Notes: generated by a model not told the origin, from the letters alone. DNA of 64,000 nt from Acidimicrobiales bacterium (GCA_965216685.1 OZ244195.1:657610-721609); one strand, 5' to 3'. Shown: positions 1-48,790, counted from the first letter of the stretch. Numbers and translations: made by a program.

Positions 1-1
1 C

Positions 2-937
2 AGTTTCGAGATCCTCGAACCTGAACTGTTCGCCGGACTGTCGGCCCTGGTCCCGGTCCAGGATCTCCGTCGGGTCGCTGAGACCCAGGCCGACGCCTTC
101 GCCGGCAACCTGGCCCATGCCCTCCAACGGGAGCCGTTCGCCAAGGGGCTGCTCTGGCGGTGTGTCGTCATCCATGAAGCCGATCAGAGGGTGCGACTGG
201 TCTGGGCCTTCCACCACGGCATATTCGACGGCTTCAGCGCCGGAGTTCTCGACGCCGAGATCCGGAGTATTCTCAAGGGCGACGAACTTCTCGACGCCCA
301 GCCCTACAGCCGGTTCCTGAGCACCGTCACCGCCAACATCGACTGGCCGGCCGAGCTGGAGTCGTTCGACTACACAACCTGGTTGTCGTCGAATCGACCG
401 ACCACGGCAGCGCTGCAGTCCAACGACAATCGCGGTCGGTTGTCCCGCTCACTCGACGGCGAGAACCCGCTTGACGCGGCCCTGACCGCGGCCCACGGCC
501 TGCTCTCGGAGCTGACCGGAAGCCGTCAGGTGGCGGTCGGCTTCGTGGCCAACTGCCGCCGCTGGATGGGCGACGAGTTCTCCAACTGCCTGGGCGAGTT
601 TCTGGACGTCATTCCGGTGCTGCTCCAGGGCGACGGTGATCAGGCAACGGTGGCCCAGCGCACCGCAAGAGCCCAGAACGAGGGCCTGCACTACCTCCAC
701 TCGCTCTTTGAATGGACCGGCGATGACCCCGTGGTAAGTGAACTCCGCAGCGTCTACTGGAACGACCCGGGGTCCCTTGATCTGACGTTGCTCAACTTCC
801 AGGGCTACATCGCCCCCGGTGACCTCCCGGAGGACTCGGCCGACGGGCCGACCCTGGCCGTCGCTCACGTCAACGTCTGGTATGACGACGACCACCTGCA
901 TCTCGAAGTCATCAACGGCCCCACCCCGGGCCGGTGA
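2..937 (+). CDS. NRPS-type condensation (C) domain protein, 5' end cut by window edge
   Basis: Frame 2 is open from the first base. HHxxxDG catalytic motif (AFHHGIFDGFS) at about 212-232. The listed ORF 191..937 is only the Met-initiated tail. Confidence 0.7.
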   Translation, partial: SFEILEPELFAGLSALVPVQDLRRVAETQADAFAGNLAHALQREPFAKGLLWRCVVIHEADQRVRLVWAFHHGIFDGFSAGVLDAEIRSILKGDELLDAQPYSRFLSTVTANIDWPAELESFDYTTWLSSNRPTTAALQSNDNRGRLSRSLDGENPLDAALTAAHGLLSELTGSRQVAVGFVANCRRWMGDEFSNCLGEFLDVIPVLLQGDGDQATVAQRTARAQNEGLHYLHSLFEWTGDDPVVSELRSVYWNDPGSLDLTLLNFQGYIAPGDLPEDSADGPTLAVAHVNVWYDDDHLHLEVINGPTPGR

Positions 938-1001
938 GCATATCAATGGAACAAACCGGCAATAACACCGTCATGTCACGCGAACAATTTGGAGGAAAGC
1001 A

Positions 1002-1967
1002 GTGTCAGACCGGCGTCAACCCATAAGACAACGTGCCCAGCCATACACCAAGTATCTGGATCTGTATCTGATCTTGACCGTTGGATCGGTGTGGCTCCTG
1101 GCTCTAAGCTACGCAATTCTCGGCGACACTGCAGTTGACCTGCTGGGTGAGCTCGATCTCCGCAATCCGGCGGTTATTCTCGTCCTGCACAGTCCGGCGA
1201 TCGCCGCCTTCCTGATCTTCTATCTCTACGACGGCAGCCGGGGCATCAAGAACTTCTTCCGCACACTCGTACCCCGGAAGGCGGATCTGCCCTGGCTCCC
1301 GGTGCTGGCGGCCCTGATGTTGGCCTACATTTTCGTCGTCCGCTACTTGTGCATCGCCTTCGGTATCGACGTGCCCGATGACCCCGAGAGTCCGTGGGAG
1401 ATGCTGTTGACCTTCCTCGAACTCTTCTACAAGGAGGTCGGGATGGTGGCCATCACCATTGGCTGGTTCGGCTTCTACCTGCCTCTTTTCCACCGCATCA
1501 CCAACAGTCACGTGTGGTCCGGTATCGCCACCGGGTTCGGTATCGGCATGTTCGTGGCCCCTGGCAACCTGTTCGCCTCGTTCGAGCTGGCGACGGCGTG
1601 GCCGATCTACGTCTCCCAGCTCAGCATATTGGGGATCGGCATGAGCTTGCTGCTCAGCCGGATGAAGGGCAACGTTCTGTTCTTCCTGATTCCGTTCTGG
1701 GTCTCAGCCTCGGGAAGTGCCATGAGACTCTACTATTTCGAGCGACCGACCCAGCTGGTGCAGATCTCGCTGTTCAGCATCTTCGTCGTCGCCCTCTACT
1801 TCTATCTCAAGAGGGAAGGCAACGGGGAGTTGGAGAACGAGCCACACCTTTGGCCCGAGTACTTCGAGAACGAGTACACCACTCGGAAGAATGCCCCGAT
1901 CCCCGGCGAAGGCGACAGGAGCAAGACATTCGAGATCCATGAGAAGGCTGTCTCCGAGTCATCATAA
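1002..1967 (+). CDS. polytopic membrane protein, unknown function
   Basis: GTG start 6 nt after GGAGGA. About 8 hydrophobic segments. No motif I can name. Confidence 0.55.
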   Translation: MSDRRQPIRQRAQPYTKYLDLYLILTVGSVWLLALSYAILGDTAVDLLGELDLRNPAVILVLHSPAIAAFLIFYLYDGSRGIKNFFRTLVPRKADLPWLPVLAALMLAYIFVVRYLCIAFGIDVPDDPESPWEMLLTFLELFYKEVGMVAITIGWFGFYLPLFHRITNSHVWSGIATGFGIGMFVAPGNLFASFELATAWPIYVSQLSILGIGMSLLLSRMKGNVLFFLIPFWVSASGSAMRLYYFERPTQLVQISLFSIFVVALYFYLKREGNGELENEPHLWPEYFENEYTTRKNAPIPGEGDRSKTFEIHEKAVSESS

Positions 1968-1985
1968 AAAAGCGAAAGAATTCCG

Positions 1986-2717
1986 TTGAGTTCATCGATT
2001 TACTGGAATGTGCGTCCGTCCAGTACCGGCCGCCAGATCATCATGTTCCCGTTTCTGGGAGGATTCGGTTCGTCCTACAATCGCCTGGTCAAGGAGCTGA
2101 GCGGGGATTGGGACGTCTGGACCGTGAACCCGCCGGGCCACGGTCCGTCTTCACGACCGCCGTACCGCCGACTCACCCCGTTGGTCAATTGCTACCTGGA
2201 CGGACTGAATCCGGTGCTCAAGCCGGGGGCTCTGTTCTTCGGTCACAGCATGGGAGGCGTGATCGCCTACCACGTTCTGCTGGCCATGGGCGGCCAACCG
2301 ATGTTCGGTCGTCGCCAGCCGACCGACCTGGTGATTTCGGCGTCGTGCGCACCGAGGGATCTACGGGTGGCCGGTGTGGCCGAACTCCCGGAGCCGGAGC
2401 TGCTCGATCACCTGTTGAGTTTTGGCATGATCCCCAGCGAGGTGGTGGCCGACCGGTCGCTCATCGACCTCTTCCTCCCGGCCATACGGGCCGACTACGA
2501 GGTCCTTGAAGATGTCAAGCAGATGGCGCCGGTGCAGTTGGATGTACCGACCCGGCTGGTGCTCGGAGAGCTGGATCCACTCACTCCGGCCGGCACGGCG
2601 CAGGCTTGGCAGGACTACCTGGCCGAGCCGATTCAGGTCCACGTGCTGGAGCGGGAGGGACACATGTTCGTGTTGGAAGCCGTCGACTCGCTGAACAAGA
2701 TCCTGATCGATGGCTGA
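1986..2717 (+). CDS. type II thioesterase (alpha/beta hydrolase)
   Basis: GHSMGG nucleophile elbow, N-terminal FPFLGG, about 240 aa, NRPS/PKS context. Confidence 0.8.
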   Translation: MSSSIYWNVRPSSTGRQIIMFPFLGGFGSSYNRLVKELSGDWDVWTVNPPGHGPSSRPPYRRLTPLVNCYLDGLNPVLKPGALFFGHSMGGVIAYHVLLAMGGQPMFGRRQPTDLVISASCAPRDLRVAGVAELPEPELLDHLLSFGMIPSEVVADRSLIDLFLPAIRADYEVLEDVKQMAPVQLDVPTRLVLGELDPLTPAGTAQAWQDYLAEPIQVHVLEREGHMFVLEAVDSLNKILIDG

Positions 2718-2768
2718 CGGTGAACCCTATTCACCCGACGCCTCCCGCCACGGCGAGGTGACGGGCTG

Positions 2769-4118
2769 ATGGAGACCCGAGAGCCGACTGAGCAGGTCCC
2801 GTCCGAGGCCGATGTGGCCCGCAACTTCCGCTGGTTCCTGATCATCTGGGTGGCCCAGATGGTGGCCCGCATCGGCAACGGTCTGACCGCGTTCGGACTG
2901 GCGGTCTACGTCTATCAGCTCACCGGTTTGAGCACCTCGGTGGCCGCCGTCACCATGGCCGCATTCCTGCCGGCGTTCCTACTGGGTCCATTGGGTGGTG
3001 TTCTGGCCGACCGTTACGACCGCCGGCTGTTGATGATCCTGGGTGACACCATGTCGGCCATCGGGCTGGTCTTCCTCCTGGTGGCCTTTCGGGGCGGTTT
3101 CGCCAACCTGACCGTGATCTGCCTGGGGGTGGCCTTCAGTTCGATCTTCGGCTCCGTCATGGATCCGGCCTACCGGGCAACGGTCACCGATCTGTTGACC
3201 CCGGAGCAGTACTCGCGAGCCGGCGGTCTGGTTCAGTTGGCGTCGGCGTCCCAGTTCCTCATCTCCCCGGCCTTGGCCGGATTCCTGCTGGCCCGGTATG
3301 GCATCTCGACCATCATCGTCATCGACATCGCCACCATGGTCGTGACCATCGGGGCCATGGCCGTCGTGTGGCGAGGGGTGACCGGAGAACGACGAGTCCA
3401 GGAAACCGGCATGTGGGCCGACTTCCGAGTCGGGGTCCGGTTTCTCACTGACAACCAGGGCATCACCGTCTTGATGCTCCTGGTCACGTTGGTCACCTTC
3501 TGCATGGGCTTCCTGCAAACACTCCTGACTCCGATGATGCTTGATCTAACCAGCGAACAGGTGCTGGGGGTCGTGCGATCGGCCGCCGCGGTGGGGATGA
3601 TAATTTCGAGTTTGGCCATCGGTATTTTAAGCTTGGGTAACCGCCACCTCGCCTATATGGCAGTGGCCCTGACAGCTAACGGTGTTCTGGTATTTCTCAT
3701 GGGAGCAACGGTCAATGTGGTACTGATCGGGGTATTCACGTTCGCCTTCTTTATGACGCTCCCGATCCTGAATGTCAGCGTCGAGGTACTGGCCCGATCG
3801 GCAATTCCCAACGAAATGCAGGGCAAGGTATGGGGTCTCATGGGCCTCGTGTCCCAGATCGGCTACATCGTGGCCTACGCCGTTTCCGGCCTGCTGGCCG
3901 ACTATGTCTTCAACCCGCTGTTGGTGGCTGGCGGCGCACTGGCCGACAGCGTCGGGCAGCTCACCGGAGTCGGGCCGTCCCGAGGGATCGGCTTGATGTT
4001 CATGACGGTCGGGGTGATCCTGCCGATCATCGCCTTCGTGATCCCCCGGGTCGAGAGCATCAAAGCGCTGGAAGTGAATCTGGTCAAGCAAATGGTGAAG
4101 GTCGGAGAAGGGGCCTAG
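2769..4118 (+). CDS. MFS transporter (EntS/MFS_3-like exporter)
   Basis: About 12 TM segments. GPLGGVLADRYDRR loop motif typical of MFS. Confidence 0.8.
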   Translation: METREPTEQVPSEADVARNFRWFLIIWVAQMVARIGNGLTAFGLAVYVYQLTGLSTSVAAVTMAAFLPAFLLGPLGGVLADRYDRRLLMILGDTMSAIGLVFLLVAFRGGFANLTVICLGVAFSSIFGSVMDPAYRATVTDLLTPEQYSRAGGLVQLASASQFLISPALAGFLLARYGISTIIVIDIATMVVTIGAMAVVWRGVTGERRVQETGMWADFRVGVRFLTDNQGITVLMLLVTLVTFCMGFLQTLLTPMMLDLTSEQVLGVVRSAAAVGMIISSLAIGILSLGNRHLAYMAVALTANGVLVFLMGATVNVVLIGVFTFAFFMTLPILNVSVEVLARSAIPNEMQGKVWGLMGLVSQIGYIVAYAVSGLLADYVFNPLLVAGGALADSVGQLTGVGPSRGIGLMFMTVGVILPIIAFVIPRVESIKALEVNLVKQMVKVGEGA

Positions 4119-4122
4119 TTAC

Positions 4123-4611
4123 ATGTGGATTGTTGCCATCATCGGGGCGGGGATACTCACTGCCACCATCCAACTGTTGTTCCAGGGGTTCGACACCGGA
4201 TACGAACACATCATGGAGACGTACCTGCTGCACCAGTTCGCGGTGTCGCACGGCATCATCGCCGTTGGTGGATTCATCATCAATGTCCTGCAGGCCGACC
4301 GCACGGCCGAGCGGTTGGGATGGCCCGGCGGGCCGTTCCAGATCAAGTACGGATTCGCTCAGGTTGGCCTGGGCGTCATGGGGGTCATGTCAATATGGTT
4401 CCGGGGAAATTTCTGGGTCGGAACGTTGGTCACGCTCTACATATACGGCCTCAGCGGCCTCTGGACGCACACCATGGAACTACGGCGTAAACAACGGGAA
4501 GGTGGCTCGACTGATTGGATCGAGCTAGGCAATATAGTGCTAGACGTGATCTATCACATTGTGTTGACATGGATGTCGCTACAGATTCCCGGAGTATGGA
4601 GCCTGCAATGA
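4123..4611 (+). CDS. small integral membrane protein
   Basis: 162 aa with 4-5 hydrophobic helices. Stop overlaps the next start (ATGA). Confidence 0.5.
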   Translation: MWIVAIIGAGILTATIQLLFQGFDTGYEHIMETYLLHQFAVSHGIIAVGGFIINVLQADRTAERLGWPGGPFQIKYGFAQVGLGVMGVMSIWFRGNFWVGTLVTLYIYGLSGLWTHTMELRRKQREGGSTDWIELGNIVLDVIYHIVLTWMSLQIPGVWSLQ

Positions 4612-7010
4612 GCGACCGAAACTCGCTGCTCACCCGCCACGCCATCAACGATCTGGTCAGGAACAAAGGAGTCAATGCCGCCCTGCTGGTGGTGTTGACC
4701 CTGAGCGCCTTCCTGATGGCCACCGGAGCCATGGTCATGGAACGTCTGATCGGATCGGTCGATCAGCTTTTCGAACAGGCCCAACCGCCGCACTACCTGC
4801 AGATGCACAAGGGGGAGTACGATGCAGCCGCGCTCGATCAGTTCGCGGCCGACAACCCCGAGATCGCCACCTGGCTGATCGAGGACATGCTGGGCTACGA
4901 CAGCGCGGCCATCTCCTGGGACCGACCGTCAACCGGCGAGTCGGGTGATCTGGCCGAGAGCCTGATCGACAATCTCTTCGTGTCACAGAATCAGGAGTTC
5001 GACTTCCTGATCGATGAGACCGGGGTCATTCCCGAGCCCGGACCGGGCGAAATCTACGTACCCGTGGCCTACAAGCAGCAGTTTGATCTCCAGATCGGCG
5101 ACCGTCTGGGAGTGAGGACCGACAGCGGCATCCAGTACTTCGACACCAAGGGCTTTGTCCGCGATTCCCAGATGGCATCCTCGCTGTCGTCGGCCACCCG
5201 GTTCCTCATCTCTCCCGAGGACTTCGCCACCCTGGAGACGGCCGGGGGCGGGGCGTCGGAGATCATCGTCGAGTACCGGTTGACCGACACCTCGCTCACC
5301 TCAACCGTGCAGACGGCCTATGAATCAAATCAGGATCTCCCGAAGAACGGGCAAGCGGTTACCTATCAGCAGATCCGGCTCATCAACGCCTTCAGCGACG
5401 GTCTGGTGGCGCTGGCCCTGATATTCGTCAGCTTCCTGGTGATCGCCATCGCCATGCTCAACCTCCGATTCGTCATCCGGGGGACACTGGAAGATGAAGT
5501 GCGGGAGATCGGGGTGATGAAAGCCATCGGCATCCCCAACAAGAACATCAGCCGGCTGTACCTGTCGAAATACGCCATCTTGACCCTGGTCGGTTGCATC
5601 ATCGGCGGGCTCCTGGCCGTAGCCGCCACCAGCTACCTCACCCGCAGCGTCCAGGCCAACTACGCCGCTGCCGAGTACGGATTGTCCACCATCATCGTTC
5701 CGCTGCTGGCGTTGGCGCTGGTCTTCGGCTTTGTTGTGGCCATGTGCTGGAACTCCCTGCGGGCGGTGCGCCGGATCCAGGTGGTGAACGCCCTGGTCCA
5801 CGGCAGCACTCTCGATGAGAAGCAGACCCGACGCCAGGCCAAGCGGCAGGCCAAGCGGGCCCGTCGGGCCAACCTGGCCGGTGCCGGCGCCGACAACATG
5901 AACCGTCGTCTGGCCTTCCTCGATCTGCTGGCTGAACGCAAACAGTGGATCCTGATTCCCATCGTCTTCTTTCTCGCCGCCGTTCTCATGGTGCTGCCCA
6001 CCAACCTGCTCAGTACGTTCCAGAGTCCTCGCTTCGTCACCTACATGGGTGCACCGGAAACCGATGTGCGGGCCGATCTCCAGTTCTCGGAAGACGTCGA
6101 CTCGGTACGCAACGACATGCTGGCCGCTCTTGATGGCGATGACCGGGTTGCCGACATCCGGGTGTACGCCAACGTCTTGTATGAGACTCCGGGCGAAGAG
6201 GGTTGGGAGATCCTCCGGGTCGAGGTGGGCGACTACTCGACGGGAACCATCGAATTCAGTGACGGCCAACCGCCGGGCGACGGTGAGATCGCCCTGTCGG
6301 TGGCCAACGCCAACAAGTACGGATTGTCGCCGGGCGACGAGATGAGCATCCGTCAAGCCGGGCAGGAATCCTCGGTGACGGTGAGCGGCGTCTACCAGGA
6401 TGTGACCAGCGGTGGTTTCACCTCGAAGATGCAGGGTGAGGTCACCTCGGGAGCCGTTGGTTATGTGATCTACGCCGATCTGGGCGAAGGGAACGACCCG
6501 TCGGTGGTGGCGGCGGAGTACAACGAGCGGTTCCCGGCCGCGGCCGTCATTCCCATGCAGGAATACGTGCAGCAGACGCTGGCCTACGTCACCGACGCCT
6601 TCCGTAGCGCTGCCATCCTGTCGACATTGTTCGGGGTCGGGGTGGCACTGCTGATCATCAGTCTCTTCCTCAAACTTCGCCTGACCAAGGATCGGGTCAA
6701 GATCGGTGTCCTGTCGGCCATCGGCTTCTCGTCGGATGAGATCATCAGGCAGACGAAATTCAAAGTTGTCCTGGTGGCAGCCCTGGGCACGCTGCTGGGC
6801 GTATTGTTCGCGGCGACGATCGGAGAGTCCCTGGTGGGAGGAATGATCGCCCTTGTCGGGTTGGGGATCGAGAATCTCGACTTCATCCCGTCACCGCTGA
6901 TTGTGTACGTCCTTTACCCGCTGCTGTTGATTGCCGCCGGGTATCTGGGCGCCGTGTTCCTAACCGCAGGTCTACGTGACCCGGACAAGAGCAGTTGGTT
7001 GAAAGAATGA
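4608..7010 (+). CDS. ABC transporter permease, MacB/FtsX type (two FtsX modules)
   Basis: Likely start is ATG 4608 (MSDRNSLL) in an ATGA overlap. Two 4-TM FtsX-like modules, each preceded by a large extracytoplasmic region. Confidence 0.8.
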   Translation: MSDRNSLLTRHAINDLVRNKGVNAALLVVLTLSAFLMATGAMVMERLIGSVDQLFEQAQPPHYLQMHKGEYDAAALDQFAADNPEIATWLIEDMLGYDSAAISWDRPSTGESGDLAESLIDNLFVSQNQEFDFLIDETGVIPEPGPGEIYVPVAYKQQFDLQIGDRLGVRTDSGIQYFDTKGFVRDSQMASSLSSATRFLISPEDFATLETAGGGASEIIVEYRLTDTSLTSTVQTAYESNQDLPKNGQAVTYQQIRLINAFSDGLVALALIFVSFLVIAIAMLNLRFVIRGTLEDEVREIGVMKAIGIPNKNISRLYLSKYAILTLVGCIIGGLLAVAATSYLTRSVQANYAAAEYGLSTIIVPLLALALVFGFVVAMCWNSLRAVRRIQVVNALVHGSTLDEKQTRRQAKRQAKRARRANLAGAGADNMNRRLAFLDLLAERKQWILIPIVFFLAAVLMVLPTNLLSTFQSPRFVTYMGAPETDVRADLQFSEDVDSVRNDMLAALDGDDRVADIRVYANVLYETPGEEGWEILRVEVGDYSTGTIEFSDGQPPGDGEIALSVANANKYGLSPGDEMSIRQAGQESSVTVSGVYQDVTSGGFTSKMQGEVTSGAVGYVIYADLGEGNDPSVVAAEYNERFPAAAVIPMQEYVQQTLAYVTDAFRSAAILSTLFGVGVALLIISLFLKLRLTKDRVKIGVLSAIGFSSDEIIRQTKFKVVLVAALGTLLGVLFAATIGESLVGGMIALVGLGIENLDFIPSPLIVYVLYPLLLIAAGYLGAVFLTAGLRDPDKSSWLKE

Positions 7011-7792
7011 GAGACGACATGTCATCGCCAAACAATGATTCCATGCTCGAGTCGAATGACTTGACCAAAACCTACTACTCGACGGAGCCACCAACCCAGG
7101 TGCTCAACGGGATAGATCTAACGGTGGAGCGGGGCGAGTTCCTGGTGGTGATGGGAGCCTCTGGTTCAGGAAAGTCGACACTGCTCTACTGCATCAGCGG
7201 TATGGATCGGCCGACCAGTGGATCGGTGACGATGAATGGACGAGACCTCACCGCCCTCAGCGATGAGGAAATGAGCCACGTTCGACTGACGCAGATGGGT
7301 TTCATCTTTCAGCAGGGATACTTTCTGAGCAACTTGAACATCCGCGACAATATTCTGCTCCCGGCGCTCAAGGCAACTCCCAAGCAGAAGGATGCCGTGA
7401 TGGACCGAGTCGATGCCGTCATGGAACGATTTGGCATCGATCATGTCAAGCAACACGGCATCACCGAGGTATCGGGCGGGCAGCTGCAGCGAGCCTCCAT
7501 CTGCCGCGCCCTGGCATCCGAACCGGCCATTCTGTTTGCTGATGAGCCGACAGGTGCTCTGAACAGCAGCATGTCGGGCGAGGTCATGGATGCTCTGACC
7601 AACGTCCACCACGGCGGGACAACCCTGGTCATGGTGACCCATGATCCGGCCTGTGCAGCCCGAGGAAGCAGGGTGGTCTACCTCCGCGACGGACTTCTAC
7701 TCGATTCGCGGGACTTTGGCCTGTGGACCGAAGATCAGGCAGCAAAACGAGAAGACGCGCTAATTGGTTGGCTCAAAGGTATGGGTTTTTAG
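7007..7792 (+). CDS. ABC transporter ATP-binding protein (MacB/LolD-like)
   Basis: Walker A GASGSGKST, signature SGGQLQR, Walker B ILFADEPT. ATGA overlap with the permease stop. Confidence 0.9.
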   Translation: MRDDMSSPNNDSMLESNDLTKTYYSTEPPTQVLNGIDLTVERGEFLVVMGASGSGKSTLLYCISGMDRPTSGSVTMNGRDLTALSDEEMSHVRLTQMGFIFQQGYFLSNLNIRDNILLPALKATPKQKDAVMDRVDAVMERFGIDHVKQHGITEVSGGQLQRASICRALASEPAILFADEPTGALNSSMSGEVMDALTNVHHGGTTLVMVTHDPACAARGSRVVYLRDGLLLDSRDFGLWTEDQAAKREDALIGWLKGMGF

Positions 7793-7843
7793 TCATATGT
7801 AGCAGGAGATACACAGTACAAACACGGCTAATGGTGGGAATCC

Positions 7844-8107
7844 ATGCCGTCACAACCAAAGGGATTAGTGGTGACACAAGTAGAGTTTAAGAAGAAACTG
7901 GCGGAGTTCACTTCCAAAGGTGAAGATGAGTTTGCCATGTCCGATGACCTTCTGGATATCGATCTCGACTCACTCGGTATCTACGAATTCTTGATGGAAA
8001 TCGAAGATACGGTCGGCCAGGATGTGGACGTATCCGAATCGGTAACCACCGTGCAGGACCTCTACGATCTGGTCTTGACATCCTCCGGTACATCGTCTGG
8101 CGCGTAG
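7844..8107 (+). CDS. acyl carrier protein
   Basis: 87 aa, acidic, with the DSLGIYEF phosphopantetheine-attachment motif. Local GC is about 45-50% by direct count. Confidence 0.75.
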   Translation: MPSQPKGLVVTQVEFKKKLAEFTSKGEDEFAMSDDLLDIDLDSLGIYEFLMEIEDTVGQDVDVSESVTTVQDLYDLVLTSSGTSSGA

Positions 8108-8108
8108 C

Positions 8109-9347
8109 ATGACCGCCTCCCAGACCTCCGATGAGGTGGTCGTCACCGGGATGGGCGTGATCAGCCCCATCGGCCACGACGTGTCGAGCTTCGAGGCGAA
8201 TCTCTTTGCCGGCCGCCACGGCATCGTCCCCATCGACCACTTCGACACCTCCGACATCGCCGTCAAACTCTACGCTCCGGTGGGTCACATGAAGGCGGCC
8301 GAGGCCTTCACCCCCTCCGAGCTACGGCGTTTCGATGAATACAGCCTCTTCGGCCTGCTGGCCGCCCGCCAGGCCATCGAGGAGTCCGATGTCCTCGGTT
8401 CGGTCGATCCGTACCGGCTCAGTGTCTTCATGAGTACTGGGCTCGGCGGTGTCTACACCTCCATGCGGGAGTTCGAGAAGATGCAGGATTCGGGGCCCCG
8501 GAAGGTGTCGCCTCTGCTCATTCCCAATTGGATCGCCAACATGTTGTCGGGCATCATCTCCATCGAGATCGGAGCTCAGGGTCCCTCCTATGCTCACGTG
8601 GCAGCCTGCGCCTCCAGTGCAACCAGCATCGGCGAAGGCATGCGGGCCATCCGCCACGGCTACGCCGATGTTGTCGTGTGTGGCGGTGCCGAGGCTCTGA
8701 CCCACAAGCTGGCCATGGCCGGGTTCCAGAATCTGCGGGCCCTGACCAGCAGCGCTGACCCTGATCGAGCCAGTATCCCCTTCGACCAGGAGCGATCGGG
8801 CTTCGTGATGGGCGAAGGGGCGGCCGCCCTGATCCTGGAAAGTCGGAGCCACGCCGAGGCCCGGGGGGCCACCATCCACGCCACCATCGCCGGCTATGGC
8901 ATGACCAGCGACGCCCACCACATCACCGCACCGGCCGACGACGGCGTGGCCGGGGAACGAGCCATGCTCGACGCTCTGGCCGAAGCCGGCGAGAGGGACG
9001 GCAAGTACTACGTCAACGCCCACGGCACCAGCACGGTGAAGAACGACCGGTCCGAGGCCGGCATCATCAGCCGGGCACTGGGTGACCGGGCGCTGGTTTC
9101 GTCGACCAAATCGATGACCGGTCACCTCATCGGTGCCGCCGGGGCGGTGGAGGCCATTGCCTGTGTTCTGGCCCTGCAGCAACAGATCGTGCCGCCCACC
9201 GCCGGTACCGAAACCATCGACAGTGACATGACGATAGATGTGGTCCGGGGCGAGGCCCGACCGGCGGAGTTCGCTCGGGCCGTTTCGTTGTCCCTGGGCT
9301 TCGGGGGGCACAATGTCAGCTTGGTGATCGACGCCGCCGAGGTGTGA
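8109..9347 (+). CDS. beta-ketoacyl-ACP synthase II family (FabF-like KS)
   Basis: Active-site Cys in AACASSATS. His motifs HITAP and NAHGTST. GHLIGAAG near the C-terminus. Confidence 0.9.
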   Translation: MTASQTSDEVVVTGMGVISPIGHDVSSFEANLFAGRHGIVPIDHFDTSDIAVKLYAPVGHMKAAEAFTPSELRRFDEYSLFGLLAARQAIEESDVLGSVDPYRLSVFMSTGLGGVYTSMREFEKMQDSGPRKVSPLLIPNWIANMLSGIISIEIGAQGPSYAHVAACASSATSIGEGMRAIRHGYADVVVCGGAEALTHKLAMAGFQNLRALTSSADPDRASIPFDQERSGFVMGEGAAALILESRSHAEARGATIHATIAGYGMTSDAHHITAPADDGVAGERAMLDALAEAGERDGKYYVNAHGTSTVKNDRSEAGIISRALGDRALVSSTKSMTGHLIGAAGAVEAIACVLALQQQIVPPTAGTETIDSDMTIDVVRGEARPAEFARAVSLSLGFGGHNVSLVIDAAEV

Positions 9348-9964
9348 TCGAGCTGGCCGTCGCCCACTCGAACGGCCTGAGCCGGGCCGCCATCGACCGG
9401 CTTCGGGCCGCCCTCCCCAGCGAACGACGGCACAAGAGCAGCTCCTACCCTCACCAGTCAGACCGCGACGCCTCTGTCGTCACCTTCGCCCTGCTGCAAC
9501 GGCTGTGGCGGGAGCGAGACGGTGGACCGTTGCCCGACGTCGTGGCCGGGAACGGGGGCAAACCGACGTTCGCCGGAAACGAGGACCGTTACTTCAACCT
9601 GTCGCACGATCCCCCCATCTGCGTGTGCGTGCTGGCCCCGGCGCCGGTGGGGGTGGATGTGCAGACCAGAGTGCCGTTCGACGATGCTCTCTTCGATCGC
9701 ATCGCCTCCCCGAACGAGCGCGAACTGCGGGAGCAGTTCCGGCGATCCGATGACCTGAGCGCGCTGTGGACCGGCAAGGAGGCGATCATGAAGCGCTCGG
9801 GCCAGGGCCTGTCGTGCTCACCCCGGCACATCGACACCGTTGCCGCCACCGACATCGTGACGTTGCGGGAGGGCGCCGCCACCATCAGCGTCAGCGTCCA
9901 GGGAATGTCGGCCGACGAGGTGCTGGCCGAACTGCGAATCCGTCACCCACAACTCATCCCCTGA
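9344..9964 (+). CDS. 4'-phosphopantetheinyl transferase (Sfp type)
   Basis: GTGA overlap with the KAS stop. Motifs FNLSHD, VGVDVQ, WTGKEAIMK. Confidence 0.8.
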   Translation: MIELAVAHSNGLSRAAIDRLRAALPSERRHKSSSYPHQSDRDASVVTFALLQRLWRERDGGPLPDVVAGNGGKPTFAGNEDRYFNLSHDPPICVCVLAPAPVGVDVQTRVPFDDALFDRIASPNERELREQFRRSDDLSALWTGKEAIMKRSGQGLSCSPRHIDTVAATDIVTLREGAATISVSVQGMSADEVLAELRIRHPQLIP

Positions 9965-9965
9965 C

Positions 9966-10010
9966 AATTGCAGTAGAAAACGAGGCTACCCCTCGTTTTC
10001 TACTGCAATT
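9966..10010. repeat. family-A palindromic repeat, copy 1 (20-bp perfect stem, 5-nt loop)
   Basis: AATTGCAGTAGAAAACGAGG ctacc CCTCGTTTTCTACTGCAATT. Lies between convergent genes. The right arm encodes the last codons and TAG stop of the minus-strand gene. Confidence 0.85.
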
Positions 10011-11245: not shown

Positions 11246-11299
11246 CGCCTACAGGGTAGTGCCGTGTCCGCTGACGTTGGTTCGGGACCAGCGCGACCG

Positions 11300-11345
11300 T
11301 TGTGTGCGCTCCGGCGTTCACATGTGAACGCCGGAGCGCACACAA
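11300..11345. repeat. family-B hairpin H1: 46-bp perfect palindrome
   Basis: TTGTGTGCGCTCCGGCGTTCACA|TGTGAACGCCGGAGCGCACACAA. Lies in the divergent intergenic region. Confidence 0.85.
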
Positions 11346-11393
11346 CCGGGATCCGATGCCGGACCGCGGGGTCAGCCGTGAAATAGTGGGAGG

Positions 11394-12533: not shown

Positions 12534-12550
12534 GGACCCGGGCCCGGGGC

Positions 12551-13692
12551 TCAGGCGATGGCACCGCTTTGACGCAGCGCCGCCACCTCGTGGGCGTCGA
12601 ATCCCAACCGGGTAAGGACAGCATCGGTGTGTTGTCCCGGGTGGGCCGCCGGGCCGGCTACCGAGGCGCCGGTTCGGGAGAAGCGGGGGGCCGGGGCGGC
12701 CTGGGTCATGCCGCCGTTCTCGATGAAGGTCTTGCGGGCCACATTGTGAGGGTGACGGGTCGCCTCCTCCATCGACAGTACCGGAGCAAAGCAGACGTCG
12801 CTGTGCTCCATCAGCTCACACCACTCGTCACGGCTCTTGGCCTTGAAGATCTGGGCCATCCGGTCCTTCATCTCCGGCCAGCGAGTCTGATCATGCTGGC
12901 GGCCGAACGTTTCCTCATCCAGTCCGGCCAGCCGCTTCAGCTCGGCGTAGAACTGGGTTCGAGCGATCCGATCGACACATACTTGCCGTCGGCGCACTCG
13001 TAGACGTCGTAGAACGGAGCTCCGGTGTCGAGCAGGTTGGTGCCCCGTTCGGAACCCCACATGCCGGCGGCCTTCAGCCCCCAGACGAAGTTGATGAGTA
13101 CGGCCGATCCGTCGACCATGGCGGCGTCCACCACCTGCCCCTGGCCCGACTGCCGGGCCTCCAACATGGCGCACACCATCCCGAAGGCCAGCATCATGCC
13201 TCCCCCGCCGAAGTCGCCGATCAGGTTGATGGGTGGCGTGGGCGGCTGATCCTTGCGCCCCAGCGGTTCCAGGGCGCCGGCCAGGGCGATGTAGTTGATG
13301 TCGTGCCCGGCGGCCGAGGCATAGGGGCCGTCCTGGCCCCAGCCGGTCATGCGACCGTAGACAAGCCGGGGTTTGCGGGCCAGGCAGACCTCCGGTCCCA
13401 GGCCCAGCCGCTCGGTCACTCCGGGCCGGAAGCCTTCGATCAGGCCGTCGGCCTGCTCGACGAGTCGCAGCACGGACTCGACCCCGTCGGGGTGTTTGAG
13501 GTCGACGGCGACCGACTGGCGGCCCCGCCCCAACACGTCGGGCGGCGGCCGATCGGGGGCCGATTCGGGAACAGCCGACGACCGATCGATGCGGATCACG
13601 TCGGCCCCCATGTCGCTCAACATCATCCCGCAGAAGGGTCCGGGCCCGATTCCGGCCAACTCGATGATTGTGACGCCATGCAGTGGTCCCAT
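12551..13692 (-). pseudogene. alpha-methylacyl-CoA racemase / family III CoA-transferase, interrupted by a 1-nt frameshift
   Basis: N-terminal 245 aa ([20 protein letters not shown]...YVSIGSLEP) are in ORF 12937..13875. The C-terminal part ([12 protein letters not shown]...) is in ORF 12551..13705. The frames switch at a CCC run (plus-strand GGG 12955-12957). Confidence 0.75.
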
Positions 13693-13753
13693 GGCCCAAC
13701 AACATAGGTCACAGCTGCGGTTCGTAACGACTTCGGCCCGGCCCGGCGCCTGA

Positions 13754-24760: not shown

Positions 24761-26050
24761 ATGTCAGCCGCCGAGTCAACGGACGCCCCATATTCCCATG
24801 GGGGTGGGCACTCCCACCAGATGGAGGGCGGGTGGGATGAGTGGATGTCGAACCCCGTTCTGCGGGCGCTGCTCAGCCTGCTTCTGGTCGCCGCCGTGAT
24901 CACCGCCATCGCCGTGGCCAATCTGTGGCCCGACGGTTCGGGGCGGACCGCAGTGCGGGCCGAGGCGGCCACGGTGGGTCTGGCGGCCGAGCGGATCGAG
25001 GCCGTGGTCGAGGAGGTGGTCGACGAGGAGTGCGACTTCTCGACCCAGGGCAATGAATGGGAGTGCCGAACGGTGGTGGTGACGCCGTCGGCCGGGCCCG
25101 ACGCCGGGTCACTGCTGATACTGCCCGAGTTCGTCAAGGACAGCGGCCCTCCGGTTCCCGACCTGTCCGTGGGCGACGACATCATGATCGACTACGAACC
25201 CAACACCGGGTTCTACTCCTACGGCGATCAGGACCGCCGCTCGGCGCTGCTGTGGTTGTTCATCACCTTCGCCGTGGTTGTGGTGGCGCTCGGCCGGTTG
25301 CGGGGTCTGCTGGCCCTGGCCGCCATGGCCACCACAGTGGCCGTGCTGGTGGGCTTCGTGGCTCCGTCGGTGCTGGACGGTAACGACCCGGTGGCGGTGT
25401 CAGTGGTGGCCGCCGCGGTCATCGCTTTCGTCAGCCTGTATCTGACCCACGGGGTCAACCCCACCACCACCGTGGCCTTGATCGGCACCTTGTTGGCGCT
25501 CCTGCTCACGCTGGTGCTGTCGAGTTTGTTCTTCGATCTGGCCCGGTTCACCGGCCTGGCCACCGAGGAGGGGATCCTGCTTCCGGTGCTGGCTCAGGAC
25601 ATCAACATGGCTTCGTTGCTTCTGGGCGGCGCCGTTATCGGGGCCCTGGGCGCATTGGACGACGTGACCGTGACCCAGGTGGCCACGGTGGCCGAGTTGC
25701 GGGCTCAGAATCCCCATCTGAGCCGCCGCCAGCTGTTCGCCTCCGGCATCCGAGTCGGCCGGGAACACATCGCGGCCACCGTGAACACGCTGCTGCTGGC
25801 CTACGCCGGTGTCAGCATGCCATTGTTGCTGCTCTTCGTGGTTTCCGACCTGTCCCTGGTCATGATCGCCAACTCCGAGATCGTGGCTGTGGAGATCGTG
25901 CGCACCCTTTGTGGCTCGCTCGGTCTGATCGCGGCGGTCCCCATCACCACCTGGCTGACCGCCGTTCTGGTCTCGGCCGGCGCCCCCAGCGATCGTCATC
26001 ACCACACCGAGGCCGCCCCACCAACAATTGCAGCAGAAAACGAGGGCTGA
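24761..26050 (+). CDS. YibE/F-like membrane protein
   Basis: N-terminal TM, extracytoplasmic domain, then about 7 TM. YibE/F-like organisation (recalled). The last 8 codons and stop lie in repeat copy 2. Confidence 0.7.
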   Translation: MSAAESTDAPYSHGGGHSHQMEGGWDEWMSNPVLRALLSLLLVAAVITAIAVANLWPDGSGRTAVRAEAATVGLAAERIEAVVEEVVDEECDFSTQGNEWECRTVVVTPSAGPDAGSLLILPEFVKDSGPPVPDLSVGDDIMIDYEPNTGFYSYGDQDRRSALLWLFITFAVVVVALGRLRGLLALAAMATTVAVLVGFVAPSVLDGNDPVAVSVVAAAVIAFVSLYLTHGVNPTTTVALIGTLLALLLTLVLSSLFFDLARFTGLATEEGILLPVLAQDINMASLLLGGAVIGALGALDDVTVTQVATVAELRAQNPHLSRRQLFASGIRVGREHIAATVNTLLLAYAGVSMPLLLLFVVSDLSLVMIANSEIVAVEIVRTLCGSLGLIAAVPITTWLTAVLVSAGAPSDRHHHTEAAPPTIAAENEG

Positions 26051-26070
26051 CCTCGTTTTCCACTGCAATT
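26026..26070. repeat. family-A palindromic repeat, copy 2
   Basis: AATTGCAGCAGAAAACGAGG gctga CCTCGTTTTCCACTGCAATT. Two internal mismatches. Lies between convergent genes. Confidence 0.85.
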
Positions 26071-30152: not shown

Positions 30153-30719
30153 ATGACAACCCACACCCCACAACCCCCAGACCCCGTCCGGCTACCGGCT
30201 GACGAGGTGCTCCGTCTGATTGACAAGCGGTCCTATGGCGTGCTGGCCTCGACGTCGCCGGCCGGCCGGAGCCATTCAGCCGGGGTGCTCTACTCCCGGA
30301 CCGGATCATCACTTGTCTTCAGCACCATGCGATCAAGTCGCAAAGCCCGCAACGTGGCCGCCAATCCCCATGTGGCCATGACCATCCCCGTCCGCCGAGT
30401 GCCCGTCGGTGGTCCGCCGTCGGCCATCATGTTCCAGGGCCGGGCCGAGATCCTCGACCTCGATGACCGCTGGCTGCGAAGCCAAGCCGACGCCGGCCAT
30501 CTCAAGTCGATAACCGGCCATGGTGAGTTGGAGCTTGCCGGTGGCTGTTTCGTCCGGATCGACCTGCCCGACCGGGTGGTGACCTACGGCCTGGGCATGT
30601 CGTTGCTGTCGCTGATCAGAGACCCGCTGAATGCCTCCGGTTGGAGCGACCTCAGCACAGTACACCGGGCTGCCGGGCACCGGGCTGCCGGAGCAGGTTT
30701 GTGCGTTGCGGTGTCATAG
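30153..30719 (+). CDS. pyridoxamine 5'-phosphate oxidase-family (FMN/F420 split-barrel) protein
   Basis: SYGVLASTSPAGRSHSAGV...RKARNVAANPHVAM pattern. The C-terminal about 20 aa derive from a 15-bp duplication and hairpin H2. Confidence 0.7.
   Translation: MTTHTPQPPDPVRLPADEVLRLIDKRSYGVLASTSPAGRSHSAGVLYSRTGSSLVFSTMRSSRKARNVAANPHVAMTIPVRRVPVGGPPSAIMFQGRAEILDLDDRWLRSQADAGHLKSITGHGELELAGGCFVRIDLPDRVVTYGLGMSLLSLIRDPLNASGWSDLSTVHRAAGHRAAGAGLCVAVS
30663..30692. repeat. 15-bp tandem duplication inside a CDS
   Basis: caccgggctgccggg / caccgggctgccgga (14/15 identical). Encodes HRAAG-HRAAG. Confidence 0.85.
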
Positions 30720-30740
30720 TGACACCGCAACGCACAAACC
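30696..30740. repeat. family-B hairpin H2 (21-bp perfect stem, loop TAG)
   Basis: GGTTTGTGCGTTGCGGTGTCA tag TGACACCGCAACGCACAAACC. The loop TAG is the stop codon of the upstream gene. Confidence 0.85.
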
Positions 30741-30770
30741 TTCCCATGGCTCGACACGTGGCCCAAACCA

Positions 30771-39891: not shown

Positions 39892-39900
39892 CTGCACGGG

Positions 39901-39945
39901 CCACCAGCCGCCAGCCACCAGCCACCAGCCACCAGCCACCAGCCA
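39901..39945. repeat. heptanucleotide microsatellite (CCACCAG) x about 6.4
   Basis: ccaccag ccgccag ccaccag ccaccag ccaccag ccaccag cca. Begins 10 nt after the kgd stop and abuts repeat copy 3. Confidence 0.9.
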
Positions 39946-39994
39946 ATTCTTGCAGCAGAAAACGAGGCCGGCCCTCGTTTTCTACTGCAGGATT
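39945..39994. repeat. family-A palindromic repeat, copy 3 (degenerate ends)
   Basis: AATTCTTGCAGCAGAAAACGAGG ccggc CCTCGTTTTCTACTGCAGGATT. The right arm carries the stop and last codons of the HAD gene. Confidence 0.8.
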
Positions 39995-40707
39995 TCGAGG
40001 TCGAGGAGGGCCTGCAGCTCGGTCAGGGCGGCGATGGGGTCGACGACCTTGATGGTGGTCATGCCCATGGCTCGGGCCGGCTTCAGGTTGACGCCCAGGT
40101 CGTCGAGAAACACCACCTCGGCCGGCTCCACGCCGGCCCGGTCGAGGGCATGCTGGTAGAACTCGGGTTCCGGTTTTCGTACGCCGACCACCGATGATTC
40201 GATGATGAAGTCGAAGCGATCCAACACGCCGGCCACCGCCGCCTTCTCCTCCGAGGTCCGCCGATCGACCTGGTCCGATCGATCGGCGGCGAAGTTATTG
40301 GTCAGGCAGGCGGTGATCAGGCCGGCTCGTTTGATGGTGTCGATGGCGGCGGCCATGGCCGGTCGCACGGTCCCGGCCAGCATGGCCAGAACGGCTCGGC
40401 CGTCGATCTCATGACCGAGCTCACCGGCTTCGGCCTCGAAAAGGGCGACAAACCGGTCGATGTCGACGTCGCCTCGTTCCAGTCGGGCCCAGGCGTTGTC
40501 GTCCGGGTTGGTGGCGTTGATGGTGCGGATGAAGCCATCGGGTAGTGCATTGCGCCGCTCGTAGCGGGCAAAGGCCTCGAACGGGCTCGTGAGAACCACG
40601 CCGCCGAAGTCGAAGAACACGGCTCGAAACGACGATTCGGTCACGGGCCACGATGGTAGTCGGTGATGTTCGGACCGTTCGGGCCTGCTGGGGTTTTTCC
40701 GGGCCAT
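39982..40707 (-). CDS. HAD-superfamily hydrolase
   Basis: DxD motif in VFFDFGGVVL, and a later FLDDLGVN motif. The start is uncertain (ATG 40707 or an internal GTG). Confidence 0.7.
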   Translation of the reverse strand: MARKNPSRPERSEHHRLPSWPVTESSFRAVFFDFGGVVLTSPFEAFARYERRNALPDGFIRTINATNPDDNAWARLERGDVDIDRFVALFEAEAGELGHEIDGRAVLAMLAGTVRPAMAAAIDTIKRAGLITACLTNNFAADRSDQVDRRTSEEKAAVAGVLDRFDFIIESSVVGVRKPEPEFYQHALDRAGVEPAEVVFLDDLGVNLKPARAMGMTTIKVVDPIAALTELQALLDLEILQ

Positions 40708-47982: not shown

Positions 47983-48024
47983 CTGTGCGCCCTACACCCC
48001 GTTTCCGGGGCGTAGGGCGCACAG
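47983..48024. repeat. family-B hairpin H3
   Basis: CTGTGCGCCCTACACCCCG tttc CGGGGCGTAGGGCGCACAG, with 1 mismatch. Lies 16 nt after the stop. Confidence 0.8.
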
Positions 48025-48735: not shown

Positions 48736-48790
48736 TCCAAAATTGCAGTGGAAAACGAGCTGTGAGCTCGTTTTCCACTGCAATTTTGGA
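48736..48790. repeat. family-A palindromic repeat, copy 4 (25-bp perfect stem)
   Basis: TCCAAAATTGCAGTGGAAAACGAGC tgtga GCTCGTTTTCCACTGCAATTTTGGA. Confidence 0.85.

What the first reader, a model, noticed from the sequence alone, without database searches (positions are those of the whole stretch)
9966..10010. Family-A palindromic repeat: four copies, all at convergent gene junctions, with compensatory base changes
A 45-55 bp hairpin-forming element occurs four times, at 9966-10010, 26026-26070, 39945-39994 and 48736-48790. The consensus is AATTGCAG-YR-GAAAACGAG-S, a 5-nt variable loop, then S-CTCGTTTTC-YR-CTGCAATT. Every copy lies in the short gap between two convergent genes: PPTase/EcsC-like, YibE-F/malic enzyme, kgd/HAD and nucS/MaoC. 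Differences between copies preserve pairing. Copy 1 has GTAG paired with CTAC, while copy 4 has GTGG paired with CCAC. The innermost pair is G:C in copies 1-3 and C:G in copy 4. That covariation argues the hairpin itself, as RNA or single-stranded DNA, is under selection. On either strand the inner part reads CGAGG-loop-CCTCG-TTTTC, a small stem followed by a T-tract. The element could therefore work as a bidirectional intrinsic terminator packaged in a dispersed REP/MITE-like repeat. I do not recognise this sequence as a described repeat family.
Basis: seen in the sequence. Interest (0 to 1): 0.7.

Follow-up and report, generated by a model that had tools for sequence, protein, structure and literature searches.

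The report
Dispersed hairpin repeat at convergent gene ends
A 45-55 bp perfect-palindrome DNA repeat has recently spread to the short gaps between convergent genes in one Acidimicrobiia genome; it is a new sequence family that resembles the mycobacterial TRIT and the proteobacterial REP elements in design and location, and whether it stops transcription is plausible but unproven.

Summary
Four near-identical palindromes (arms of 20-26 bp) lie at the stated coordinates, and shuffled sequence gives none. An exhaustive covariance-model search of the window finds exactly these four. All four sit at convergent gene junctions (13 of 55 junctions are convergent; p about 0.002-0.006), and three flanking genes take their stop codon from the element.

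The window comes from an Acidimicrobiia genome, not Mycobacterium. Eleven syntenic loci from relatives (NucS 85-95% identical, about 190 kb) hold no copy. The same junctions there range from a 4 bp overlap to 115 bp of unrelated DNA, so the copies are recent, lineage-specific insertions.

The closest known thing is TRIT, the conserved palindromic terminator motif of mycobacteria. I recovered two real TRITs from M. tuberculosis. They share the architecture and context but not the sequence.

Each strand also reads like a GYRG-tagged REP, but the tag is on both strands and paired, and the window has no RAYT or transposase.

Classical terminator scoring is negative for nearly all configurations. 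The terminator idea is therefore plausible, not shown.

Verdict: a new member of a known kind, of moderate interest.

The parts
9966..10010 (.). Copy 1: arms 9966-9985 and 9991-10010 (20 bp, perfect), loop CTACC. It starts 1 nt after the PPTase stop codon (9962-9964). The EcsC-like gene on the - strand ends at the TAG (10000-10002) inside the right arm.
26026..26070 (.). Copy 2: arms 26026-26045 and 26051-26070, loop GCTGA. Two C.A/A.C mismatches on the + strand become G.U pairs on the - strand. The YibE/F gene reads 8 codons into the left arm and stops at the TGA (26048-26050) in the loop. The malic-enzyme stop codon lies 14 nt beyond the right arm.
39945..39995 (.). Copy 3: arms 39945-39967 and 39973-39995, loop CCGGC. 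The outer arms deviate from the consensus on both sides (AATTCTTGCAG / CTGCAGGATTT). The HAD gene on the - strand ends at the TAG (39982-39984) inside the right arm, and its last codons differ from those of relatives (LEILQ* against LELL*).
48736..48790 (.). Copy 4: arms 48736-48761 and 48765-48790 (26 bp, perfect), 3-nt loop. It lies 12 nt after the nucS stop codon and 15 nt before the MaoC stop codon. The 82-bp spacer here replaces spacers of -4 to 115 bp of unrelated sequence in relatives.
39900..39945 (.). (GCCACCA) x 6.6 microsatellite abutting the left end of copy 3, between the kgd stop codon and the element. It is absent from all relatives, so it is part of the inserted spacer.

Best explanation
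Family A is a lineage-restricted palindromic repeat of about 45-55 bp that has recently multiplied in one Acidimicrobiia genome. It persists at the 3' ends of convergently transcribed genes. Its layout is outer stem (AATTGCAG-YR), A-tract (GAAAA), short G+C inner stem (CGAGG), loop, then the mirror image. A transcript entering from either side therefore makes the same 20-26 bp hairpin with a U4 run after the inner stem. The most likely role is as a transcript 3'-end element that acts in both directions. It would limit read-through into the opposing gene, as a non-canonical and probably factor-assisted (NusG or Rho) terminator. It may also protect the upstream mRNA from 3' exonucleases, as shown for an E. 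coli REP. Shown here: the repeat, the hairpin, the convergent-junction bias, the overlap with stop codons, insertion relative to relatives, and distinctness from TRIT. Inferred: that it is transcribed, that it affects 3' ends, and how it spreads.
For: The repeat and hairpin are real and far beyond chance. All 4 copies lie at convergent junctions (13 of 55 junctions; hypergeometric p = 0.002, or 0.006 when only junctions containing a 3' end are counted). The element abuts or overlaps stop codons. It is 42-56% G+C in a 65% G+C window, with invariant A4/T4 runs flanking the inner stem. Pairing is kept through 5 double changes, with 90.6% of cells paired against 33-48% when the partner is slid. 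The element is absent from 11 syntenic relative loci, where the same junctions have other hairpins or almost no spacer. This shows that convergent spacers in this clade repeatedly acquire hairpin DNA. The closest analogues have measured effects at 3' ends. TRIT sites coincide with mapped RNA 3' ends on both strands in M. tuberculosis (Table S3 of 10.1101/2022.06.01.494293). [quoted passage not shown]
Against: There are no expression data for this organism. The classical terminator score is negative for 30 of 32 configurations tested, and the consensus terminator scan did not flag copy 1. Mycobacterial RNA polymerase does not terminate in vitro at hairpins without U-tracts. In M. tuberculosis the 3' ends mapped at two TRITs lie inside the 5' arm, not after the hairpin: the offsets past the hairpin centres sum to -34 nt. 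One of those sites shows more read-through when Rho is depleted. So even the analogue is not a proven intrinsic terminator. The convergent-junction bias is equally expected for a selfish element tolerated only where it harms nothing. Only four copies could be examined.
Confidence: 0.5

Rival explanations
1. A purely selfish miniature mobile element (MITE- or REP-like) with no host function. It inserts widely and survives only where insertion is harmless, which means the dead space between convergent genes. Its symmetry reflects how it is copied (terminal inverted repeats, or hairpin-templated synthesis), not selection on an RNA.
For: It is species-specific and the copies are nearly identical, implying recent spread. 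Copies are extra DNA relative to relatives. Three insertions remodel gene C-termini. Copy 4 differs from copy 1 by changes mirrored exactly on both arms, so its two arms are identical over 24 nt, as expected if a copy is born symmetric. On each strand, GYRG precedes a 9-bp stem with a 5-nt loop, as in tagged REPs.
Against: No transposase, RAYT or integrase is present in the window. No target-site duplication is visible. No solo arms or longer parent element were found. Copies 2 and 3 share the same arm asymmetry (GCAG on the left, GTRG on the right), so both arms are inherited rather than regenerated from one. The invariant A4/T4-flanked G+C stem looks like terminator design. This rival is compatible with the best explanation, because REPs are both mobile and functional.
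Confidence: 0.3
2. An RNA-processing site. The 20-26 bp perfect duplex formed in the transcript is a substrate for a double-strand-specific RNase (RNase III type), so the element sets 3' ends or mRNA decay by cleavage rather than by stopping the polymerase.
For: The stems span about two helical turns of near-perfect duplex, the classical RNase III substrate by established knowledge. In M. tuberculosis the 3' ends mapped at the two TRITs fall on average 17 nt before the hairpin centre, inside the 5' arm. That fits cleavage better than termination. [quoted passage not shown]
Against: The evidence is entirely indirect and comes from a different family in a different organism. The Term-seq positions could be a ligation or mapping artefact of perfect palindromes. 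Nothing was tested on family A.
Confidence: 0.1
3. A DNA-level site: a palindromic binding site for a dimeric protein, or a cruciform-forming sequence, with a role in topology, replication or roadblocking of the polymerase.
For: Sequence conservation exceeds what structure alone requires: 15 of 24 pairs are invariant. The element has perfect two-fold symmetry. REP/BIME elements have been proposed to bind gyrase and IHF (background knowledge; see the REP function debate).
Against: At 45-55 bp with a variable loop, it is long for an operator. It lies at gene ends, never in the 12 divergent (promoter) regions. G.U-compatible transitions in copies 2 and 3 preserve RNA pairing on one strand but break DNA symmetry. 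No candidate binding protein is encoded nearby.
Confidence: 0.07

Closest known systems
TRIT (Tuberculosis Rho-independent terminator), the conserved palindromic motif at gene ends in Mycobacterium (Gardner et al. 2011, PMC3152330)
   Same: Both are multi-copy, conserved in sequence as well as structure, palindromic and therefore bidirectional, and sit within a few nt of stop codons, including convergent junctions. The two real TRITs read here (L134 12554-12610 and 15738-15800) have 21-24 bp near-perfect arms with an A/T-rich patch next to a G+C inner stem (AAAATCGCACG...CGTGCGATTTTG). One of them fills 63 of the 75 nt between convergent genes. They vary in the same ways as family A: double changes on both arms, and an A.C mismatch that is G.U on the other strand.
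   Different: The sequences are unrelated. The TRIT arm is CGAGCAGACNCNNAATCGCAC and the family A arm is AATTGCAGYRGAAAACGAGG. The family model scores TRITs at 16-20 bits, like any palindrome, against 59-80 bits for members. Arm alignments are not better than shuffles. TRIT arms are absent from the window, and family A arms are absent from about 280 kb of mycobacterial DNA. TRIT loops are 14-16 nt against 3-5 nt here. TRIT was reported only in Mycobacterium, whereas this genome is from class Acidimicrobiia.
REP elements (repetitive extragenic palindromes) of the GTAG-tagged superfamily, mobilised by RAYT transposases (Di Nocera et al. 2013, PMC3733652)
   Same: Both are short dispersed palindromes downstream of genes, enriched between convergent and unidirectional genes, species-specific in sequence, and proposed to act as terminators or mRNA stabilisers. 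On each strand the unit is GYRG + 9-bp stem + 5-nt loop. The tetranucleotide is GTAG x3, GTGG x3 and GCAG x2 across the 8 arms, which is the same degeneracy described for the REP tag. Those are also the only variable arm positions.
   Different: The REP tag is unpaired and at one end only, giving the unit a polarity. Here a tag-like motif is on both strands and the two pair with each other, and 7-12 further outer pairs are added, giving a fully symmetric 45-55 bp element with 20-26 bp stems instead of 6-9 bp. No RAYT is present in the window. Tagged REPs were not reported from Actinobacteria in that survey.
Canonical bidirectional intrinsic terminator
   Same: An A-tract, a G+C stem-loop and a T-tract arranged symmetrically between convergent genes.
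   Different: The U-run is only 4 nt and the stem it follows is 5 bp (-5 to -7 kcal/mol). Once the outer arms are transcribed, the A and U runs pair with each other inside a much longer hairpin that has no good tail. Scores are negative. Unlike ordinary terminators, the sequence is repeated almost identically at unrelated loci.
MITEs and Correia-type elements (Neisseria) that fold through their terminal inverted repeats
   Same: Small non-coding repeats consisting essentially of two inverted ends. They are found near gene ends, are transcribed into long hairpins, and can supply stop codons or alter C-termini (background knowledge; review PMC3184786 listed).
   Different: No target-site duplication, no internal region, and no related autonomous element were seen. 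At 45-55 bp it is at the very bottom of the MITE size range.

Membership tests
TRIT (Gardner et al. 2011) | Matches the conserved TRIT sequence motif | tested here: not met
   Two TRITs were recovered at Term-seq/RNIE-flagged sites in M. tuberculosis. Their arm GAGCAGACNCNNAATCGCAC has no match with up to 3 mismatches in the window. Model R1 scores them at 16-20 bits. Arm alignments are not significant.
TRIT (Gardner et al. 2011) | Palindromic, hence bidirectional, stable hairpin | tested here: met
   Both strands fold to 20-26 bp stems with z-scores of -4.9 to -11.9.
TRIT (Gardner et al. 2011) | Narrow positioning at gene termini, often overlapping the end of the coding sequence | tested here: met
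   All 8 flanking stop codons lie within the element or less than 54 nt from it (6 of 8 within 15 nt). Three genes end inside the element.
TRIT (Gardner et al. 2011) | Restricted to the genus Mycobacterium | tested here: not met
   The closest NucS relatives are labelled Acidimicrobiia, Acidimicrobiales or Actinomycetota MAGs. No family A copy was found in about 280 kb of mycobacterial DNA.
GTAG-tagged REP / RAYT system | Short stem-loop (stems mostly 6-9 bp, loops 4-5 nt) present in many copies | tested here: inconclusive
   The inner unit has a 9-bp stem and a 5-nt loop, but the whole element pairs over 20-26 bp. The copy number is known only for 64 kb (4 copies). The 5.39 Mb source contig could not be read.
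GTAG-tagged REP / RAYT system | Unpaired GTAG (GYRG) tag at one end only | tested here: not met
   GYRG is present 5' of the inner stem on both strands (GTAG x3, GTGG x3, GCAG x2), but it pairs with CYRC of the other arm.
GTAG-tagged REP / RAYT system | A RAYT (Y1/HUH transposase) gene in the genome, typically flanked by the repeats | not testable with these tools
   None of the 56 window genes has a transposase domain.
GTAG-tagged REP / RAYT system | Located downstream of genes, between convergent or unidirectional ORFs | tested here: met
   4 of 4 copies are at convergent junctions and none are at divergent junctions.
Canonical intrinsic terminator | G+C-rich hairpin followed immediately by a 7-9 nt U-rich tract | tested here: not met
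   The scan did not flag copy 1. Hairpin/T-tail scores are -8 to -68 for the inner configurations and -52 to +1 for the full hairpin (the formula was recalled from d'Aubenton Carafa et al. 1990).
MITE | Terminal inverted repeats flanked by a target-site duplication, with a related autonomous IS | tested here: inconclusive
   The arms could be TIRs, but no duplication is visible at any of the 4 copies. There are no solo arms or parent element in the window. The whole genome was not searchable.
Any Rfam family | Reaches a family's gathering score | tested here: not met
   There were 0 hits at gathering threshold in the whole window. In permissive mode only eukaryotic miRNA-precursor hairpins appear, all far below threshold.

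The most novel reading that the evidence does not exclude
Family A and TRIT may be two independent instances of one actinobacterial strategy. In this reading a sequence-specific palindrome, not a generic hairpin, marks gene ends because a dedicated factor recognises it. The factor could be a double-strand RNA/DNA binder or nuclease, or an HUH/RAYT-like enzyme that also spreads the element. The GYRG motif on both strands would make family A the first 'double-tagged' REP-type element in Actinomycetota, born symmetric and mobilised as single-stranded DNA. The TRIT 3' ends that map inside the 5' arm would reflect processing by that factor rather than termination.
Probability: 0.15. Interest if true: 0.7.

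Novelty: new member of a known kind. Interest (0 to 1): 0.38.

Why it matters
High-G+C actinobacteria have few canonical terminators, and how their transcripts end is an open question. TRIT has been the only conserved terminator-like motif described, and only in Mycobacterium. A second family, unrelated in sequence but with the same design and placement, in a distant class (Acidimicrobiia) suggests the strategy is more general and evolves repeatedly. The comparison with relatives also shows that convergent-gene spacers in this clade turn over rapidly by gain and loss of hairpin DNA. These insertions rewrite the last codons of neighbouring genes, which affects gene annotation in MAGs. On present evidence, from four copies and no expression data, it is a useful lead rather than a discovery.

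Tried and rejected
1. The single genome-contig scan with the 18-base core was a misjudgement.
2. A strict 24-base pattern found nothing in JGI metagenomes or IMG/VR. A relaxed 22-base pattern found 5 metagenome hairpins that lack the AATT ends and the CGAGG stem and come from contigs of 44-69% G+C. I rejected these as members. The viral scan was again empty.
3. blastn of copy 4 against all PLSDB plasmids gave no match.
4. The source genome was identified only as a 5.39 Mb contig carrying an identical NucS (P0247). It is not in the contig index.
5. I tried to derive TRIT from mycobacterial plasmids (195 kb) and from three M. ulcerans chromosomal places reached through IS2606. No recurrent hairpin was found. 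A tblastn of Kgd against plasmids gave no Mycobacterium record. TRIT was finally obtained from the clpB locus using Term-seq table flags.
6. No paper prints the TRIT consensus; most 'TRIT' text hits were 'Triton'.
7. A by-eye resemblance between family A and TRIT arms (AGCAGA...AAAA.CG) was tested and rejected.
8. An apparent 403-bp convergent spacer at 12534-12936 turned out to be coding.

Full report
**1. The observation**

- The core GAAAACGAG-N7-CTCGTTTTC occurs four times with no mismatch, against none in 100 dinucleotide-preserving shuffles. The half-arm TTGCAGYRGAAAACGAG occurs eight times, twice per element, against 0.2 expected.
- Each copy folds on either strand into a 20-26 bp hairpin, with MFE -28.5 to -46.4 kcal/mol and z-scores -4.9 to -11.9.
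- I aligned the copies (A1) and built covariance model R1. A search of the whole window with all filters off returns exactly these four (59-80 bits on either strand). The next hits, at 20 bits or less, are unrelated long palindromes that match on structure alone. So there are four copies and no degenerate ones in 64 kb.

**2. Context**

- I called genes with a codon-usage model trained on the window. This gave 56 genes and 55 junctions: 13 convergent, 30 tandem and 12 divergent.
- All four copies lie at convergent junctions. The hypergeometric probability is 0.002, or 0.006 if only junctions containing a 3' end are counted.
- The element is not merely in the gap. The EcsC-like and HAD genes both finish with (T/C)TG CAG TAG supplied by an arm (..KELQ*..LEILQ*). 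The YibE/F gene reads eight codons into copy 2 and stops at a TGA in its loop (..PTIAAENEG*).
- The element is 42-56% G+C in a 65% G+C window.

**3. Pairing and variation**

- On the four-copy alignment, 90.6% of cells pair, against 33-48% when partners are slid by 1-3 columns. Fifteen of 24 pairs never vary. Five pairs show a change on both sides, each in a single copy.
- Copies 2 and 3 carry uncompensated transitions. These are C.A mismatches in the + strand RNA and G.U pairs in the - strand RNA.
- The two arms of copy 4 are identical to each other over 24 nt, yet differ from copy 1 at five positions. Copies 2 and 3 share the same asymmetry, GCAG on the left arm and GTRG on the right.
- Mirrored changes are therefore real. 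In a DNA palindrome, however, they can come from selection on a hairpin, from a copying mechanism that makes symmetric products, or from a dimeric binding protein. Four sequences cannot decide between these.

**4. Whose genome, and is the element ancestral?**

- The closest NucS proteins are from MAGs labelled Acidimicrobiia, Acidimicrobiales or Actinomycetota, not Mycobacterium.
- An identical NucS (P0247) sits on a 5.39 Mb contig, which is presumably the source genome. That contig is not in the contig index.
- I fetched eleven syntenic loci from relatives with 85-95% NucS identity, about 190 kb in all. None contains the element; the best R1 score is 14.5 bits.
- The nucS/MaoC spacer is 82 bp in the window. 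In the relatives it is 89, 48, 9, 115, 19, 8, -4 and 32 bp, with unrelated sequence.
- The kgd/HAD spacer is 90 bp in the window and 4-65 bp elsewhere, sometimes with a different G+C-rich hairpin.
- The copies are therefore recent, lineage-specific additions.
- More generally, convergent spacers in this clade turn over quickly by gaining and losing hairpin-forming DNA. The 52-nt perfect palindrome at the SDR/SnoaL junction (58762-58813) is likewise absent from relatives.

**5. Wider searches**

- My one scan of the species-representative genomes was wasted on a core pattern that proved generic.
- A specific 24-base pattern has no match in the JGI metagenomes or in IMG/VR.
- A relaxed 22-base pattern that all four copies satisfy found five metagenome hairpins. 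They lack the family's ends and inner stem and come from contigs of 44-69% G+C, so I reject them as members.
- There is no match in PLSDB plasmids.
- Rfam has nothing at gathering thresholds. In permissive mode it returns only sub-threshold miRNA-precursor hairpins.
- The arm sequence does not occur in the searched literature.

**6. Comparison with TRIT**

- Gardner et al. (PMC3152330) described TRIT as a well-conserved palindromic motif. It has 147 copies in M. tuberculosis, is mostly bidirectional, is tightly positioned at stop codons, and was found only in Mycobacterium. [quoted passage not shown]
- The sequence is given only in a figure, and no other paper prints it.
- Mycobacterial plasmids and three M. 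ulcerans chromosomal places did not reveal it.
- Table S3 of the M. tuberculosis Term-seq preprint flags 3' ends that coincide with TRIT predictions. Two of them, at secE2 and clpB, are 3.2 kb apart.
- I retrieved the clpB locus (L134). At exactly the expected places I read two hairpins that share a conserved arm:
  - CGAGCAGACGCGGAATCGCAC-16 nt-GTGCGATTCCGCGTCTGCTCG
  - GGCGAGCAGACACAAAATCGCACG-14 nt-CGTGCGATTTTGCGTCTGCTCGCC
- They have the same design as family A: outer stem, A/T-rich patch, G+C inner stem, loop, mirror image. They have the same context; one fills 63 of 75 nt between convergent genes. They show the same kinds of variation.
- The sequences are unrelated. R1 scores them at 16-20 bits, arm alignments are no better than shuffles, and neither family's arm occurs in the other's DNA.
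- Family A is an analogue of TRIT, not a member.

**7. Comparison with REPs**

- The published definition is a short stem-loop (stems mostly 6-9 bp, loops 4-5 nt) with an unpaired GTAG tag at one end. The tag is degenerate as GYAG, GYRG or GTRG in some families and mostly GTGG in one. REPs lie between convergent or unidirectional genes and are linked to RAYT transposases. None was reported from Actinobacteria (PMC3733652).
- In family A the tetranucleotide 5' of the 9-bp inner stem is GTAG (3 arms), GTGG (3 arms) or GCAG (2 arms). All fit GYRG, and these are the only variable arm positions.
- That is suggestive. However, the motif is on both strands and paired, the element has no polarity, and none of the 56 window genes has a transposase domain.
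- Membership in the REP/RAYT system therefore fails on one tested feature and cannot be tested on another.

**8. Does it terminate transcription?**

- The symmetric A4/G+C stem/T4 core looks like a bidirectional terminator.
- By the classical hairpin-plus-T-tail score (formula recalled from d'Aubenton Carafa et al. 1990) the picture is less favourable:
  - The inner hairpin is too weak, at -5 to -7 kcal/mol with scores of -8 to -24.
  - The full hairpin lacks a good tail, with scores of -52 to +1. Only copy 4 is marginally positive.
  - The consensus scan did not flag copy 1.
  - The TRITs score just as poorly.
- Mycobacterial RNA polymerase does not terminate in vitro at hairpins without U-tracts. 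It tolerates imperfect tracts and is helped by NusG (PMC3993855).
- For TRIT itself, a memory-independent calculation is informative. The two mapped 3' ends are 3221 nt apart, while the hairpin centres are 3187 nt apart. For converging transcripts, the offsets past the centres therefore sum to -34 nt. The ends thus lie on average 17 nt before the centre, inside the 5' arm.
- Read-through at the secE2 site rises on Rho depletion, while read-through at the clpB site does not.
- An E. coli REP was recently shown to be a partially Rho-dependent terminator and an mRNA stabiliser.
- The best-supported reading for family A is a bidirectional transcript 3'-end element that works non-canonically, with termination assisted by factors and/or 3'-end protection or processing. 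Simple intrinsic termination is not supported.

**9. Verdict**

- The repeat is real, new in sequence, confined among everything searchable to one Acidimicrobiia genome, and recently inserted at convergent gene ends.
- It belongs to a known kind of element (REP and TRIT-like palindromic gene-end repeats).
- Its function and its means of spreading remain inferences.
- Interest is moderate. It extends the TRIT phenomenon beyond Mycobacterium and offers a second, independent family on which the open question of actinobacterial transcript 3'-end formation could be tested.

Noticed in passing
window 58762-58813: A 52-nt perfect palindrome (GAACTTTGGGACTGTTACGACCCGTT / its reverse complement, no loop) fills the 71-bp spacer between the convergent SDR and SnoaL genes. 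Relatives have only 16-17 bp of unrelated sequence there, so it is also an insertion. It is unrelated in sequence to family A and may be a member of another dispersed family.
   Followed up: partly
window 47983-48024 and about 62751-62790; also 11299-11346 and 30695-30741: A second hairpin family. CTGTGCGCCCTACACCCCG-loop and CTGTGCGCCTCCAGCCCCG-loop share 15 of 19 arm positions, with the differences mirrored on the other arm. One lies in a tandem junction upstream of nucS, the other at the convergent HerA-like/luciferase junction. Two further long perfect palindromes share only the outer TGTGCG...CGCACA motif; one of these lies in a divergent region.
   Followed up: partly
window 39900-39945: A (GCCACCA) x 6.6 microsatellite lies directly against the left end of copy 3. 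It is absent from every relative. Whether it arose with the insertion is unknown.
   Followed up: partly
L134 12554-12610 and 15738-15800 (M. tuberculosis clpB and secE2/Rv0380c): The Term-seq 3' ends attributed to these two TRITs lie inside the 5' arm of each hairpin: the offsets past the hairpin centres sum to -34 nt. Read-through at the secE2 site rises strongly after Rho depletion, but not at the clpB site. This is hard to reconcile with simple intrinsic termination at TRIT. It suggests processing, a roadblock, or a mapping/ligation artefact of perfect palindromes.
   Followed up: partly
window 12551-13705 (- strand): The CoA-transferase family III gene appears split between two reading frames. 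The Pfam match to the C-terminal part is in the frame of ORF 12551-13705, while the best codon-usage signal upstream is in the frame of 12937-13692. This could be a frameshift, a sequencing error or a pseudogene.
   Followed up: no
window 1-9964: Copy 1 sits at the end of a small biosynthetic-looking cluster. It comprises a condensation domain protein, thioesterase, MFS transporter, FtsX/ABC pair, carrier protein, ketosynthase and the PPTase.
   Followed up: no
L133 15272-15304, 15569-15601, 15664-15696: A relative (NucS 94% identical) has three copies of a different short hairpin, ACTCATGAGTTTGC-N5-GCAAACTCATGAG, within one roughly 590-bp intergenic region. So relatives have their own local hairpin repeats.
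   Followed up: no
L007, L022, L025, L039, L041, L050, L063, L065, L070, L076, L079, L106 and others (gut Coriobacteriia/Eggerthellaceae and 'Clostridiales' MAGs): Many contigs from these MAGs carry a nearly identical hairpin with conserved flanks, (C)GCGCCCG-GAAAACGAGCC-AGTG-GCTCGTTTTC-AGCGGAG. It looks like yet another conserved-sequence terminator-like repeat family, in an unrelated lineage.
   Followed up: no
L140 936-1000, L122 2990-3041, L143 10661-10775: Relatives carry their own unrelated hairpins at the same convergent junctions, for example GTCTGCGCGC...GCGCAGAC in L140 and GGTGGGGCTCCCGG-AACC-GGGAGCCCCACC in L122. L143 has a 115-bp structured spacer. This illustrates rapid turnover of gene-end hairpins in this clade.
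   Followed up: partly
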